A DNA stretch of 64,000 nucleotides, taken from NCBI RefSeq assembly GCF_024700885.2, contig NZ_CP117016.1; one strand, given 5' to 3'. The stretch's first letter is position 1; each line of letters starts with the position of its first letter. Shown one piece after another: positions 55,601-64,000 of the stretch. The DNA is from Escherichia coli. GTDB taxonomy: Bacteria > Pseudomonadota > Gammaproteobacteria > Enterobacterales > Enterobacteriaceae. Made by a program: the position numbers.

Positions 55601-58600
55601 CTTAAAGCGCAATTTGCCGAGCAAGGTCGTATTGTCGATGCTGATAACCCTCTGTTTGTCTATCTGCCGTGTGGTGTTGGCGGTGGTCCTGGTGGCGTCG
55701 CATTCGGGCTTAAACTGGCATTTGGCGATCATGTTCACTGCTTTTTTGCCGAACCAACGCACTCCCCTTGTATGCTGTTAGGCGTCCATACAGGATTACA
55801 CGATCAGATTTCTGTTCAGGATATTGGTATCGACAACCTTACCGCAGCGGATGGCCTTGCAGTTGGTCGCGCATCAGGCTTTGTCGGGCGGGCAATGGAG
55901 CGTCTACTAGATGGCTTCTATACCCTTAGCGATCAAACCATGTATGACATGCTTGGCTGGCTGGCGCAGGAAGAAGGTATTCGTCTTGAACCTTCGGCAC
56001 TGGCGGGTATGGCCGGGCCTCAGCGCGTGTGCGCATCAGTAAGTTACCAACAGATGCACGGTTTCAGCGCAGAACAACTGCGTAATGCCACTCATCTGGT
56101 GTGGGCGACGGGAGGTGGAATGGTGCCGGAAGAAGAGATGGAGCAATATCTGGCAAAAGGCCGCTAATTAATTTTCAATGCAGCATCGCCATCCTTTCCC
56201 TGGGTGAGCGATGCTGCCGATGGCGCAGGCTTAAGATTCTACCGTCTTACCTGCTATAGCTCTCTCTTTTTACCATCACCCAACACCTTTCGCTGTAAAC
56301 GGCGGTTTCGCAAACCAAACCAATACCGTAAGTAAGATAAAAGCAATAGCCGCCATACGGAAAATCTCATTTGCAGAAATTGAAAGTGATTGCTGAGTTA
56401 TTTCATTATTAATTTCATTAAGAACCCCTGAAAGCGAACCATAGTATTTATCCATAATTTGTGACGATGAATTAAACACGGGGTTAAATTGATCGATGGT
56501 TGCTGTCAACTGACTATGGTGTAACGATTCGCGTCGTCCCCACAGCGTCATTGTCAACGACGTACCAACTGATCCTGACAAGGTACGAAAAAAATTACTC
56601 ATACTCGAGGCATTAGCAAATTTATTATCTGGCAAACCTGAAAACGAAATCGTTGTTAAGGGTAAAAAGAAACAGGCGACGGCGAATCCCTGAAAAAACT
56701 GTGGCAAAATGATGCCTGTAAAATCAATCGTTGGCATAAATGTCACAGAACGCCAGTAATAGCAAACCGCATACATCAAAAAACTAAATGTCACTAACAA
56801 CCGCATGTCTATTTTGTTGCCATAACGTCCTATCAAAGGTGAAATTAATAGTGGCATGATGCCGATGGGCGCATAAGCAAGTCCGGCCCATATCGCATTA
56901 TACCCCATCGTTTCCTGGAGTAACTGCGGCATAAGGACGATCGCCCCAGAGTAAAATAAATATGCGCATGTGATACTCACAATACCAATGGTGAAATTAC
57001 GGGACTTAAATAAACTGAGATCAAGAATCGGATTCTCTGAGGTCGACTCCCAAATGACTAAAGAAATCAGAGAAATAACTGACACTACTGTTAGTATTAT
57101 TATTGTACTCGAGTTGAACCAATCCAGATCGCGCCCTTTATCAAGCATTATCTGCAAGCCACCAACACCGAGCACTAACAGGGTCAGTCCTGGTAGATTC
57201 ATTTTGACCGGTGAAGTCTCAGTTTCTCTTCCTTTAAGTAAGGTTAAGCATAATGTCAGGACGATAATCCCCATTGGGACATTGATTAAAAATATCCAAC
57301 CCCAGCTAAAGTTATCGCAAATGTAGCCACCCAATATCGGCCCACATATCGGAGCGATAATTACGGTCATTGACCATAATGCCAGAGCAAATGTTCTTTT
57401 TTCTGGCGGATAATTCCTTAATAATAAACTCTGTGACAGTGGAATTAACGGCCCCGCCATTAATCCCTGAACGACTCTAAAAAATATCAGCACATCAAGA
57501 TTGGTCGATAAACTACACATTAAGGAAGACAGCGAAAAAAAAGTGACTGAAAGTAAAAATAACCTTAATTCGCCTATTCTTTGTGCCAGCCTGCCGGTAA
57601 CAGGGATCGCAATGGCATTTGCTACGCCAAACGAAGTGATAACCCAGGTGCCTTCGTCTGTTGATGCTCCCAGAAAGCCAGATATTGTCGGTATTGCGAC
57701 GTTAGAAATAGTGGAATCCAACATTTGCATAAACGTCGCTAATGACAATGCAATAGTAACGCACCATAACGTCCCACCGGTTAATGGTGCCGGAGTTGAT
57801 TTAGTGATTGCCATTAAAGTTGTCCATTATGCGAAATAATGTTGCTAATTTCTTTTTCTATCGGACTGGTATCGATAACTAAAGCCTTACTGGTATAAGC
57901 AGGCATGGACGTCACGGTTGAAGCCAGCTCAGGCATCTCGGCAATGTCTTCGTTCTTCGTATCAATAGTTGCTGTCATCGATAAACCAATACGTAAGGGA
58001 TGTTCCATGAGTTCTTTTGGATCAAGAGAAACTTCAACCGGTACACGCTGAACGATTTTGATCCAGTTCCCTGTCGCATTTTGTGCAGGTAATAAGGAGA
58101 ACGCATTGCCGGTTCCCATATTGATCCCTGTCACCCGACCATGAAACACAACATTTTCACCATAAAGATCGCTGATAATATTGACCGATTGACCAATCCG
58201 CACATCCGTGAGTTGTGTTTCTTTAAAGTTGGCATTAACCCACATTTGACGTGCCGGTACGACAGCCATTAACGATTGTCCGGGACTCACTGTTTCGCCG
58301 ACCTGAACGCTTCTCTGGGCAATATAGCCGGTAACAGGACTCTTAATATCCGTACGTTTAAGCGCTAACCAGGCTTCTTTGGTTGCATCCGCCGCTTCAA
58401 CGACTTGTGGCTGACGGTTTAATGGTGTGTTCATTACTAAAGCTTTATTCGCTTTATAAGCCTGGATAGCGGCATTCAATGCCGCTTTGCTACTTATTAA
58501 CGTATCTTTGGTATGCTCCAGCGTTTCTTTTGAAATAACCCCCTGCTTCGCTAAAGGTACACGACGGTTATAATCTTCTAAAGATTGTTGATACTGAATA

Positions 58601-61600: not shown

Positions 61601-64000
61601 CCTCTATAGCGAGCAATTTTATATTGTCACGACATTATCCGTTTTATTAGTTGGCAGTAGCCTTTTATGGGGATTCTACCTGTTACGCTCAGTTCGTCGT
61701 CGTAAAGTCATTCAGGGTGATTTAGAAAACCAAATATCATTCCGAAAAGCACTCTCGGATTCCTTACCGAATCCAACTTATGTTGTAAACTGGCAAGGTA
61801 ATGTCATTAGTCATAATAGTGCTTTTGAACATTATTTCACTGCGGATTACTACAAAAATGCAATGTTACCATTAGAAAACAGTGACTCACCCTTTAAAGA
61901 TGTTTTTTCTAATGCGCATGAAGTCACAGCAGAAACGAAAGAAAATCGAACAATATACACACAGGTATTTGAAATTGATAATGGCATCGAGAAAAGATGC
62001 ATTAATCACTGGCATACATTATGCAATCTGCCAGCCAGCGATCATGCTGTTTATATTTGTGGTTGGCAAGATATTACCGAGACGCGTGATTTAATTCATG
62101 CACTCGAAGTAGAGAGAAATAAAGCGATCAATGCAACTGTCGCAAAAAGCCAGTTTCTGGCAACAATGAGTCACGAAATAAGAACACCAATAAGCTCCAT
62201 TATGGGCTTCCTGGAACTTTTGTCGGGTTCTGGTCTTAGCAAGGAGCAACGGGTGGAGGCGATTTCACTTGCCTACGCCACCGGACAATCACTCCTCGGC
62301 TTAATTGGTGAAATCCTTGATGTCGACAAAATTGAGTCGGGTAACTATCAACTTCAACCACAATGGGTCGATATCCCTACTTTAGTCCAGAACACTTGTC
62401 ACTCTTTCGGTGCGATTGCTGCAAGCAAATCCATCGCATTAAGTTGCAGCAGTAAGTTTCCTGAACATTACCAGGTTAAGATCGACCCTCAGGCGTTTAA
62501 GCAGGTCTTATCTAATTTACTGAGCAATGCTCTCAAATTTACCACCGAGGGGGCAGTAAAAATTACGACCTCCCTGGGTGACATTGATGACAACCACGCT
62601 GTTATCAAAATGACGATTATGGATTCTGGAAGTGGATTATCGCAGGAAGAACAACAACAACTGTTTAAACGCTATAGCCAAACAAGTGCAGGTCGTCAGC
62701 AAACAGGTTCTGGTTTAGGCTTAATGATCTGCAAAGAATTAATTAAAAACATGCAGGGCGATTTGTCATTAGAAAGTCATCCAGGCATAGGAACGACATT
62801 TACGATCACAATCCCGGTAGAAATTACCCAACAAGTGGCGACTGTCGAGGCAAAAGCAGAACAACCTATGACACTCCCTGAAAAGTTGAGTATATTAATC
62901 GCGGATGATCATCCGACCAACAGGCTATTACTCAAACGCCAGCTAAACCTATTAGGATATGATGTTGATGAAGCCACTGATGGTGTGCAAGCGCTACACA
63001 AAGTCAGTATGCAACATTATGATCTGCTTATTACTGACGTTAATATGCCGAATATGGATGGTTTTGAGTTGACTCGCAAACTCCGTGAGCAAAATTCTTC
63101 CTTACCTATCTGGGGGCTTACAGCCAACGCACAGGCTAACGAACGTGAAAAAGGGTTAAATTGCGGCATGAACTTATGTTTGTTCAAACCGTTGACCCTG
63201 GATGTACTGAAAACACATTTAAGTCAGTTACACCAGGTTGCGCATATTGCACCTCAGTATCGCCACCTTGATATCGAGGCCCTGAAAAATAATACGGCGA
63301 ACGATCTACAACTGATGCAGGAGATTCTCATGACTTTCCAGCATGAAACGCATAAAGATCTACCCGCTGCGTTTCATGCACTAGAAGCTGGCGACAACAG
63401 AATTTTCCATCAGTGTATTCATCGCATCCACGGTGCGGCTAACATCCTGAATTTGCAAAAGTTGATTAATCTTAGCCATCAGTTAGAAATAACGCCCGTT
63501 TCAGATGACAGCAAGCCTGAAATTCTTAAGTTGCTGAACTCTGTTAAAGAACACATTGCAGAGTTAGACCAGGAGATTGCTGTTTTCTGTCAACAAAATG
63601 ACTAAATAGCGGCTCCCACAATATTCAAATGTGGGAGCTATTTACCAGCACATCTTACATTTATGATGAGAACTCCTGGCGAATTTGTTCCCCATGTTGG
63701 TCGAGCGTTGCCGCTCCCGGCATAACATGCGGGTCCGCGCAGCCGCTGATTTTTATCGGATTACCTGGCATCATTATTCCCCCGGCTTCAATCAACATAT
63801 TTCTCGCCTGAGTTTGTGGCAAATTAATGGCCTCAGCCACACTTAATAACGGCGCGACGGGCACACCAACTTCATGTATTTTGGCTAACCAAACTTCAGC
63901 TGCCTGCGTTTTTAACGTTCGCTCAATATATTGTTTAAGAATAGCCTGGTTTTGTACGCGTAAAATATTGCTGCTAAATCGGGGATCATTAACCAGTTCC

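What the first reader, a model, noticed from the sequence alone, without database searches (positions are those of the whole stretch)
56276..63605. emrKY-evgAS module appears AT-rich relative to flanking core genes
The efflux pump and its two-component regulator are noticeably AT-richer by eye than dsdA or the upstream core genes, consistent with older horizontal acquisition. A candidate EvgA box lies in the divergent emrK/evgA region.
Basis: partly seen in the sequence, partly recalled or inferred. Interest (0 to 1): 0.2.

Follow-up and report, generated by a model that had tools for sequence, protein, structure and literature searches.

The report
AT-rich emrKY-evgAS acid-response island
The E. 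coli efflux-pump and acid-sensor gene cluster emrKY-evgAS really is much more AT-rich than the rest of the genome and carries a genuine, conserved EvgA binding box, but its low GC content, foreign origin and H-NS silencing are already in the literature, so this is a correct but ordinary finding.

Summary
Window 56276-63605 runs exactly from the emrY stop to the evgS stop and has GC 0.408. The rest of the window is 0.504. None of 170,684 equal-sized blocks from 200 kb of the same genome is as low (minimum 0.442). All four genes fall in the bottom 1-4% for GC and GC3, have atypical codon usage, and are depleted at codon positions 1 and 2 as well. The left edge is sharp, in the dsdA/emrY spacer. 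On the right, reduced GC continues past the window end through yfdE-yfdV-oxc-frc-yfdX-ypdI.

The motif at 59151-59168 (TTCTTACGCCTGTAGGAT) is the only match in the window to the EvgA inverted repeat at two or fewer mismatches (0.04 expected). It is identical in K-12. The same repeat lies upstream of safA, ydeP, yfdX and frc. It is also the best-conserved element in evgA-upstream regions from eight hosts.

Horizontal acquisition is supported. The core paralogue emrAB has normal GC. EvgA orthologues are spread patchily across Enterobacterales in differing contexts, some with IS elements, an integrase or a plasmid label. None of this is new: Choi and Groisman 2020 already report low GC, absence from close relatives and H-NS binding. 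The age of the acquisition cannot be determined. Interest is low.

The parts
56168..56275 (.). Convergent dsdA/emrY spacer, the sharp left edge of the low-GC block. It contains a 10-bp inverted repeat (56180-56189 and 56209-56218).
   Evidence: 300-bp GC falls from 0.53 to 0.40 between 56000 and 56300. Sequence read. No consensus terminator was found.
56276..57814 (-). emrY, the MFS (DHA2) inner-membrane subunit of the EmrKY-TolC efflux pump.
   Evidence: RefSeq annotation. TIGR00711 scores 571.5 against a cut-off of 230.2; the EmrB-specific model scores below its cut-off. GC 0.415, GC3 0.411, CAI 0.232. 62% identical to EmrB.
57814..58977 (-). emrK, the periplasmic adaptor subunit. Its stop overlaps the emrY start.
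   Evidence: TIGR00998 (EmrA/EmrK family) scores 487.4 against 390.8. GC 0.416, GC3 0.363. 49% identical to EmrA.
58978..59392 (.). 415-bp divergent emrK/evgA regulatory region. It is the most AT-rich part of the module and has reported H-NS binding.
   Evidence: GC 0.342. Same length as in K-12, with 10 SNPs and none in the box. H-NS binds the evgA promoter fragment preferentially in vitro (PMC2984483).
59151..59168 (.). EvgA box, the 18-bp inverted repeat TTCTTACGCCTGTAGGAT. It lies 174 bp upstream of the emrK GTG and 225 bp upstream of the evgA ATG.
   Evidence: Unique in the window at two or fewer mismatches, 0.04 expected. Identical in K-12. Perfect consensus in the divergent lineage L010. 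6 of 15 invariant columns in the 8-host alignment lie inside it, P about 1e-5. The same repeat is upstream of safA, ydeP, yfdX and frc. EvgA binding to the emrKY promoter is reported by Kato 2000, as cited in PMC9496106.
59264..59279 (+). evgA promoter: extended -10 TGgTATACT (59264-59272) and an inferred transcription start at 59279.
   Evidence: The 114-nt leader and the evgL start at +89/+90 given for K-12 (PMC11210196) map exactly onto the window sequence. The TSS is inferred from that numbering, not measured here.
59367..59396 (+). evgL, a 9-codon leader ORF (MLHCKGNNL). Its stop TGA overlaps the evgA ATG, giving translational coupling, and CsrA acts on it.
   Evidence: Identical to K-12 b4781. 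Function from PMC11210196. Not annotated in the MLI114 or 1190 RefSeq records.
59393..60007 (+). evgA, a NarL-family response regulator.
   Evidence: NF007419 equivalog scores 437.9 against 251. 100% identical to K-12 EvgA. GC 0.400, and the fraction of AT-rich-codon amino acids (FYMINK, 0.373) is higher than in all 154 background ORFs.
60012..63605 (+). evgS, a hybrid sensor kinase: two periplasmic solute-binding-type domains, then HisKA/HATPase, receiver and HPt domains.
   Evidence: NF007420 equivalog scores 2881.7 against 1995. Domain content comes from Pfam hits on orthologues. GC 0.411, GC3 0.382. 29 amino-acid differences from K-12.
63661..64000 (-). 3' part of yfdE, where the low-GC yfdXWUVE operon begins. 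That operon continues the compositional island beyond the window end.
   Evidence: Annotation. For yfdE, yfdV, oxc, frc and yfdX, GC is 0.45-0.47 and GC3 is 0.41-0.43. EvgA boxes lie upstream of yfdX and frc. The whole emrY-to-yfdX block is kept together in L089.

Best explanation
This is the known emrKY-evgAS locus of E. coli. It is the AT-rich left part of a roughly 14-kb compositional island (emrY to yfdX/ypdI) that an Escherichia ancestor acquired by horizontal transfer, and it is now fixed in the species. How it works is established knowledge for K-12. EvgS senses mild acidity and alkali metals and passes phosphate by a His-Asp-His-Asp relay to EvgA. Phosphorylated EvgA binds the 18-bp inverted repeat in the divergent intergenic region and activates emrKY. 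Because the box keeps its distance from evgA even in a host without emrKY, it probably also feeds back on evgAS (inferred). The same box drives yfdX, frc, safA-ydeO and ydeP. The AT-rich DNA, especially the intergenic region at 34% GC, is a substrate for H-NS silencing, so the module is off by default and EvgA acts at least partly as a counter-silencer (inferred). evgA translation is additionally coupled to the 9-codon evgL leader and repressed by CsrA.
For: Composition: (GC 0.408 against 0.506 +/- 0.025; GC3 in the bottom 1-4%; GC1, GC2 and amino-acid usage shifted; sharp left edge). Contrast with the core paralogue emrAB, GC 0.534 and 0.566. Box: unique in the window; present at four other EvgA-activated promoters; both non-consensus positions are the consensus bases in L010; 6 of 15 invariant alignment columns lie in the box, P about 1e-5; retained at -238 of evgA in C. 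freundii, which lacks emrKY. Distribution: 5,413 of 5,426 E. coli genomes; patchy EvgA orthologues at 61-82% identity in six different contexts, three with IS elements, an integrase or a plasmid label. The module is below its flanks in C. freundii, Yersinia and Klebsiella. Literature: direct EvgA control of emrKY (PMC9496106; PMC5706723; PMC6393483); low GC, absence from relatives and H-NS binding (PMC7641745); H-NS on the evgA promoter (PMC2984483); leader, evgL and CsrA (PMC11210196).
Against: No mobility genes, tRNA or direct repeats sit at the island's own borders in E. coli. The nearest tRNA, argW, is 7 kb away with the csc island in between. No donor was identified. GC3 is the same in a lineage about 10% divergent, and codon-position GC is close to the equilibrium expected for a 41% GC genome. 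That would read as 'recent', which conflicts with species-wide fixation, so either amelioration is very slow or AT-richness is being maintained. The emrK transcription start could not be found in accessible papers or assigned by the consensus scan. The box lies at -119.5 from the evgA start used, which is far for direct activation from that promoter. The consensus string was recalled from memory; Masuda and Church 2002 and Ma et al. 2004 are not held. Counter-silencing by EvgA at this promoter is inference.
Confidence: 0.88

Rival explanations
1. The genes are native, and they are AT-rich only because they are weakly expressed. Selection on codon usage is then relaxed, and the AT-biased mutation pressure of E. 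coli lowers GC3.
For: CAI is low, 0.23-0.375. CAI and GC3 correlate in the background (Spearman rho 0.37). The island has no mobility genes at its borders.
Against: The 41 background ORFs with CAI of 0.375 or less average GC3 0.524; only 5 of them reach 0.42 or lower. GC1 (47.7%) and GC2 (37.0%) are also depressed, FYMINK amino acids are enriched and GARP amino acids are depleted, which relaxed synonymous selection cannot produce. The GC step at the dsdA/emrY spacer is abrupt. The paralogue emrAB has GC3 0.59-0.71. The distribution is patchy, the contexts differ and some carry mobile elements.
Confidence: 0.05
2. Whatever its origin, the AT-richness is actively maintained by selection, because H-NS-dependent silencing and the EvgA-dependent switch need AT-rich DNA. 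It is therefore a functional property and not a fading scar of transfer.
For: GC3 does not change between the window and L010 despite about 10% nucleotide divergence. The module sits below its flanks in several unrelated hosts: C. freundii 0.42-0.47 against 0.58-0.60, Yersinia, and Klebsiella. H-NS binds the evgA promoter (PMC2984483).
Against: The Dryocola copy is fully host-like (GC 0.49-0.62, GC3 0.62-0.79) yet keeps the gene order and the left half of the box, so low GC is not required for the module to persist. Selection on coding-region GC across 7 kb is hard to sustain. This idea complements horizontal origin and does not exclude it.
Confidence: 0.25
3. The 59151-59168 motif is a chance palindrome in AT-rich intergenic DNA, and EvgA binds elsewhere.
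For: At three or fewer mismatches, 40 of 100 shuffles of the window give at least one match. The window copy has two mismatches. The consensus was recalled from memory.
Against: At two or fewer mismatches, 0.04 matches are expected. The copy is identical in K-12, while 10 SNPs fall elsewhere in the spacer. L010 carries the perfect consensus. The invariant columns of the 8-host alignment concentrate in the box, P about 1e-5. The pattern finds sites in the promoter regions of five known EvgA-activated operons, with 4 hits in L003 against 0.55 expected and 0 of 100 shuffles reaching 4.
Confidence: 0.03

Closest known systems
E. coli K-12 emrKY-evgAS locus (b2367-b2370, with evgL b4781)
   Same: Gene order, lengths and a 415-bp spacer are the same. 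EmrY, EmrK and EvgA proteins are 100% identical, the EvgA box is identical, and evgL is identical. Block GC is 0.4075 in K-12 and 0.408 here.
   Different: About 2.7% nucleotide divergence. EvgS differs at 29 of 1197 residues. The upstream neighbourhood differs: this strain has the csc sucrose cluster and a truncated dsdX.
BvgAS of Bordetella and KvgAS of Klebsiella (the BvgS-type hybrid kinase plus NarL-type regulator family)
   Same: Same architecture: tandem periplasmic solute-binding domains, HisKA/HATPase, receiver and HPt, followed by a GerE-type regulator (Pfam hits; naming after BvgAS per PMC9496106). The Klebsiella copy also has a divergent emrKY-like pump.
   Different: EvgA is only 65-66% identical to the Klebsiella protein. 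BvgAS was not compared here. The regulon differs by established knowledge: acid resistance and efflux for EvgAS, virulence for BvgAS.
EmrAB-TolC (core E. coli paralogue pump)
   Same: Same two-gene adaptor plus DHA2 MFS organisation and the same protein families. EmrK/EmrA are 49% identical and EmrY/EmrB are 62% identical.
   Different: emrAB has typical E. coli composition, GC 0.534 and 0.566 with GC3 0.588 and 0.713, against 0.416 and 0.415 with 0.363 and 0.411 for emrKY. It is regulated by MprA, not EvgA. EmrY-type proteins from other hosts are closer to E. coli EmrY (64-78%) than to EmrB (59-65%), so EmrKY is a separate lineage that travels with evgA.
H-NS-silenced, horizontally acquired islands of Enterobacteria (xenogeneic silencing), including the gad/hde acid fitness island
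   Same: Low GC, atypical codon usage, a lineage-restricted or patchy distribution, reported H-NS binding, and a dedicated activator that overcomes silencing. In other hosts evgAS lies physically next to yfdX, hdeD, hdeA and gadBC-type genes.
   Different: In E. coli the module has no integrase, tRNA or repeats at its own borders, and it is fixed species-wide rather than strain-variable.

Membership tests
EvgA (acid-sensing NarL-family response regulator) | Scores above the curated cut-off of the NCBIfam equivalog model NF007419 over its full length. | tested here: met
   437.9 bits against a cut-off of 251, residues 1-204 of 204. 100% identical to K-12 EvgA.
EvgS (acid-sensing hybrid histidine kinase) | Scores above the curated cut-off of the NCBIfam equivalog model NF007420 over its full length. 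| tested here: met
   2881.7 bits against a cut-off of 1995, residues 1-1197 of 1197. 97.6% identical to K-12 EvgS.
EmrA/EmrK adaptor family and DHA2 EmrB-type MFS permeases | Subfamily models TIGR00998 and TIGR00711 score above cut-off, while the EmrA and EmrB-specific models stay below cut-off (which separates EmrKY from EmrAB). | tested here: met
   TIGR00998 487.4 against 390.8; TIGR00711 571.5 against 230.2; EmrA equivalog 493.7 below 563; EmrB model 762.8 below 925. RefSeq names them EmrK and EmrY.
EvgA box (EvgA operator) | An 18-bp inverted repeat matching TTCYTACA-N2-TGTARGAA. The consensus was recalled from the K-12 literature and could not be verified in a held paper. | tested here: met
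   14 of 16 specified positions match. It is the only window hit at two or fewer mismatches, with 0.04 expected. The pattern independently recovers sites upstream of safA, ydeP, yfdX and frc.
EvgA box (EvgA operator) | Evolutionary conservation above the surrounding non-coding DNA. | tested here: met
   Identical in K-12. Perfect consensus in L010. 6 of 15 invariant columns across 8 hosts lie in the box, P about 1e-5. In several hosts only the left half-site is strictly conserved.
EvgA box (EvgA operator) | Physical binding by phosphorylated EvgA, and a requirement for the site in activation. | not testable with these tools
   Only indirect evidence is available: Kato et al. 2000 report EvgA binding to the emrKY promoter region, as cited in PMC9496106 and PMC5706723. 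The primary paper is not held, so the footprint coordinates could not be compared.
Horizontally acquired genomic island | Base composition and codon usage that deviate from the host genome. | tested here: met
   (see the observation check).
Horizontally acquired genomic island | Patchy phyletic distribution, and absence from the syntenic position in close relatives. | tested here: inconclusive
   Patchy EvgA orthologues occur in six different contexts. The syntenic sites in E. albertii, E. fergusonii and Salmonella were not examined directly. Absence from close relatives is stated in PMC7641745.
Horizontally acquired genomic island | Mobility signatures at the borders (tRNA, integrase, direct repeats, IS elements). 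| tested here: not met
   None at the E. coli borders. argW is about 7 kb upstream, beyond the separate csc island. Mobility genes do accompany the module in other hosts: IS3 in L090, IS fragments in L093, an integrase in L094.
Horizontally acquired genomic island | Binding by the xenogeneic silencer H-NS. | not testable with these tools
   Literature only: PMC7641745 citing Grainger 2006, and the competitive gel shift on the evgA promoter in PMC2984483.

The most novel reading that the evidence does not exclude
The divergent emrKY/evgA(S) unit may be the conserved core of a mobile acid-stress cassette that has moved repeatedly among Enterobacterales, picking up different partners (yfdX, hdeAD, gadBC-like, slp, oxalate genes). 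The 14-kb E. coli block from emrY to yfdX would have arrived as one piece: it occurs intact, with different flanks, in a genome labelled Enterobacter cancerogenus, and a 36-37% GC plasmid-type version exists that could resemble the donor pool. The unchanged GC3 between divergent Escherichia lineages would then mean AT-richness is being held in place and is not decaying.
Probability: 0.4. Interest if true: 0.35.

Novelty: already known. Interest (0 to 1): 0.12.

Why it matters
It matters little as a discovery. The locus, its regulator, the direct control of emrKY, the low GC content, the inferred foreign origin and the H-NS binding are all published. It corrects the extent of the island, which runs on through the yfdXWUVE operon beyond the window. 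It also provides a quantitative, cross-species footprint for the EvgA box. The one mildly interesting thread is evolutionary. A species-wide, apparently old acquisition shows no sign of drifting toward host composition, and the same cassette turns up in varied, sometimes mobile, contexts across Enterobacterales.

Tried and rejected
1. I first used strain 1190 (NZ_CP023386.1) as the annotation template. It is identical to the window only from 49019 onward, because it carries a P22-like prophage at argW. I replaced it with MLI114 (NZ_CP117013.1), which has 0 mismatches over all 64,000 bases.

2. The genome-contig scan with EvgS suggested 'E. coli only'.

3. The word-index search with the EvgS sensor domain returned only 6 hits with no taxa and was uninformative.

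4. A literature search for the consensus string was swamped by an 8-mer. Masuda and Church 2002 and Ma et al. 2004 are not held, so the consensus rests on memory plus the empirical recovery of known targets.

5. The emrK promoter could not be assigned. The consensus scan gave one weak minus-strand hit that lies upstream of the box, and fewer hits than the shuffles. Manual candidates (TAAATT at 59097-59092, GATAAT at 59072-59067) were too weak to report as features.

6. The Rfam scan of 54-64 kb found nothing.

7. No consensus terminator or promoter was found in the dsdA/emrY spacer.

8. Dating by amelioration was considered and dropped. Codon-position GC already sits near the 41% GC equilibrium, and GC3 is unchanged in L010, so the method gives no usable age.

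
Full report
**What the window is.** The window is E. 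coli chromosome. It is identical at all 64,000 positions to strain MLI114, NZ_CP117013.1. From left to right it holds core genes (yfcD ... purF ... fabB ... aroC), IS1397, the yfc fimbrial operon, sixA-fadJI-fadL, a yfdF-like gene, mlaA, yfdC and the argW tRNA. These are followed by the csc sucrose cluster, a truncated dsdX, dsdA, emrY, emrK, evgA, evgS and the start of yfdE. The finding's coordinates, 56276-63605, run exactly from the emrY stop to the evgS stop. Gene identities are secure. EvgA and EvgS both exceed their NCBIfam equivalog cut-offs. EmrK and EmrY pass the EmrA/EmrK and DHA2 subfamily models but fall below the EmrA- and EmrB-specific cut-offs.

Block GC is 0.408, against 0.504 for the rest of the window. 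Four distant 50-kb chunks of the same genome served as an independent background. Their overlapping 7,330-bp blocks have mean GC 0.506, sd 0.025 and minimum 0.442, so none of 170,684 is as low.

Per-gene values are below. The background is 154 ORFs with GC3 mean 0.569 and sd 0.074.

| Gene | GC | GC3 |
|---|---|---|
| emrY | 0.415 | 0.411 |
| emrK | 0.416 | 0.363 |
| evgA | 0.400 | 0.420 |
| evgS | 0.411 | 0.382 |

All four genes lie in the bottom 1-4% of the background. CAI, computed against a reference set of K-12 ribosomal-protein genes plus rpoA, tufA and fusA, is 0.23-0.375; the background mean is 0.434. Karlin codon bias is 0.39-0.48; the background mean is 0.32. dsdA has GC 0.509.

The immediately upstream csc genes and the dsdX remnant are accessory DNA, not core. 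The depression in GC also does not end at evgS. The genes yfdE, yfdV, oxc, frc and yfdX have GC 0.45-0.47 and GC3 0.41-0.43. ypdI is lower still (GC 0.384, GC3 0.370). Normal composition resumes only near lpxP, about 7 kb beyond the window end. The left edge is sharp: 300-bp GC drops from 0.53 to 0.40 across the 108-bp dsdA/emrY spacer.

**Weak expression is not enough to explain it.** Background ORFs with comparably low CAI average GC3 0.524. In the module, GC1 (47.7%) and GC2 (37.0%) are depressed too. Amino acids encoded by AT-rich codons are enriched; EvgA has a higher FYMINK fraction than any of the 154 background ORFs. The core paralogue emrAB has GC 0.534 and 0.566, with GC3 0.588 and 0.713.

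**The box is real.** The sequence at 59151-59168 is TTCTTACGCCTGTAGGAT, and it matches the EvgA inverted repeat TTCYTACA-N2-TGTARGAA at 14 of 16 specified positions. I recalled this consensus from the K-12 literature and could not retrieve the primary papers, so I tested it empirically:

- It is the only window match at two or fewer mismatches, where 0.04 are expected. At three or fewer mismatches the match would not be significant.
- The same pattern finds sites upstream of safA-ydeO (1 mismatch), ydeP (2), yfdX (1 and 3) and frc (0). In L003 that makes 4 hits against 0.55 expected, and none of 100 shuffles reached 4.
- K-12 has the identical box, while 10 SNPs fall elsewhere in the 415-bp spacer.
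- In a lineage about 10% divergent (L010), the box is the perfect consensus TTCTTACACCTGTAGGAA. The only two differences fall on the window's two non-consensus positions.
- In an alignment of evgA-upstream regions from eight hosts (44% mean identity), 6 of the 15 invariant columns lie inside the 18-bp box. The hypergeometric P is about 1e-5.
- C. freundii lacks emrKY yet keeps TTCTTACGTGTGTAGGAT at -238 from evgA, compared with -225 here. This suggests the box also serves evgA.

**Regulatory anatomy.** Gorelik et al. 2024 describe a 114-nt evgA leader and place the evgL start codon at +89/+90 (PMC11210196). Applied to the window, that numbering puts the transcription start at 59279. It also gives an extended -10 (TGgTATACT) at 59264-59272 and evgL (MLHCKGNNL) at 59367-59396, with the evgL stop overlapping the evgA ATG. 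All of this is identical to K-12 b4781. The box centre is therefore at -119.5 from that evgA start, and 174 bp upstream of the emrK GTG. I could not place the emrK start. Direct EvgA control of emrKY is established.

**Origin.** The module is in 5,413 of 5,426 complete E. coli genomes. It is present at the same position, with the same GC3, in the divergent L010 lineage. EvgA orthologues named by NCBI occur patchily, at 61-82% identity, in Enterobacter, Dryocola, Citrobacter, Erwinia, Yersinia, Rahnella, Serratia and Klebsiella. One Enterobacter asburiae record is labelled as plasmid-borne. Six loci were examined:

| Locus | Host label | Context | Module GC |
|---|---|---|---|
| L089 | E. cancerogenus (third-party assembly, taxon unverified) | whole emrY-to-yfdX block with different flanks | 0.42-0.48 |
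| L090 | C. freundii | evgAS-yfdX-hdeD-hdeA-gadBC-like genes plus an IS3 transposase; no emrKY | 0.42-0.47 (flank 0.58-0.60) |
| L091 | Yersinia | next to narGHJI | 0.39-0.43 (flank about 0.50) |
| L092 | Klebsiella | emrYK and evgA beside hdeAD and urease genes | 0.45-0.53 (flank 0.54-0.59) |
| L093 | plasmid-type contig | IS fragments, slp, yfdX | 0.36-0.37 |
| L094 | Dryocola | an integrase 8 kb away | 0.49-0.62 (host-like) |

EmrY-type proteins from these hosts are closer to E. coli EmrY than to EmrB. All of this fits horizontal mobility. No donor was identified, the E. coli borders carry no mobility genes, and no amelioration signal exists to give an age.

[quoted passage not shown] Krin et al. 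2010 show preferential H-NS binding to the evgA promoter (PMC2984483). What this analysis adds is modest:

- the true extent of the island;
- a cross-host footprint of the box;
- evidence that emrKY/evgA travels as a unit with acid-stress genes.

**Verdict.** This is a real feature, correctly interpreted, and already known. Interest is low.

Noticed in passing
window 49475-54821: A csc sucrose-utilisation cluster (cscB, cscK, cscA and a LacI-type cscR) lies between the argW tRNA and a truncated dsdX pseudogene (54603-54821), and dsdC is absent. dsdA is therefore left without its usual regulator and transporter genes. The csc genes have GC3 of 0.48-0.51 and low CAI (0.23-0.37), so they also look acquired.
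   Followed up: partly
window 48959-49033 (argW tRNA-Arg); break at 49018/49019: The window is identical to strain 1190 only from 49019 onward. The break falls in the 3' end of argW, where strain 1190 carries a roughly 39-kb P22-like prophage with intS. The window strain has an empty site with only a DUF4942 remnant.
   Followed up: partly
window 45452-46507 (+): A hypothetical gene (WP_000937806.1, yfdF-like) between fadL and mlaA is the most AT-rich gene in the window. Its GC is 0.342 and GC3 is 0.273, lower than all 154 background ORFs and lower than the emrKY-evgAS genes.
   Followed up: no
window 30239-31587: An IS1397 (IS3-family) transposase with a programmed frameshift is inserted between smrB and the yfc fimbrial operon. 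The fimbrial genes are mildly low in GC (0.46-0.49), and the region upstream of the operon (38-39 kb) drops to 0.36.
   Followed up: no
window 60012-63605 (evgS) compared with 56276-60007: Protein polymorphism is concentrated in EvgS. Against K-12, evgS has 29 nonsynonymous and 86 synonymous codon differences, while emrY, emrK and evgA together have 0 and 58. Against L010, EvgS is 90.6% identical while the other three are 96-98%. This fits the natural EvgS variation reported by Roggiani et al. 2017.
   Followed up: partly
window 59367-59396 (+): The 9-codon leader ORF evgL is annotated in K-12 (b4781) but missing from the RefSeq annotations of the two strains identical to this region (MLI114 and 1190).
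   Followed up: yes
L011 (NZ_JAHZMO010000116.1, 551 bp): A 551-bp, low-coverage contig in a Terrisporobacter petrolearius (Clostridia) assembly encodes a fragment 95% identical to E. coli EvgS. This is almost certainly E. coli contamination of that assembly.
   Followed up: no
window 56180-56218: A 10-bp perfect inverted repeat (GCAGCATCGC ... GCGATGCTGC, with a 19-nt loop) sits in the convergent dsdA/emrY spacer, exactly at the compositional boundary. It has no T-tract, so the terminator scan did not call it.
   Followed up: no
L089, L092, L093 and L094, emrK-evgA spacers (alignment A2, columns about 281-315): Outside Escherichia and Citrobacter, the left half-site TTCYTAC is conserved, but the right half reads YGTMATCC rather than TGTARGAA. 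This suggests a variant operator, or a shifted half-site, in those hosts.
   Followed up: partly
L090, L092, L093 and L094 flanks: In other Enterobacterales, evgA(S) lies directly beside yfdX, hdeD, hdeA, slp and gadB/gadC-like decarboxylase and antiporter genes. In E. coli these EvgA-cascade targets are scattered in separate islands.
   Followed up: partly
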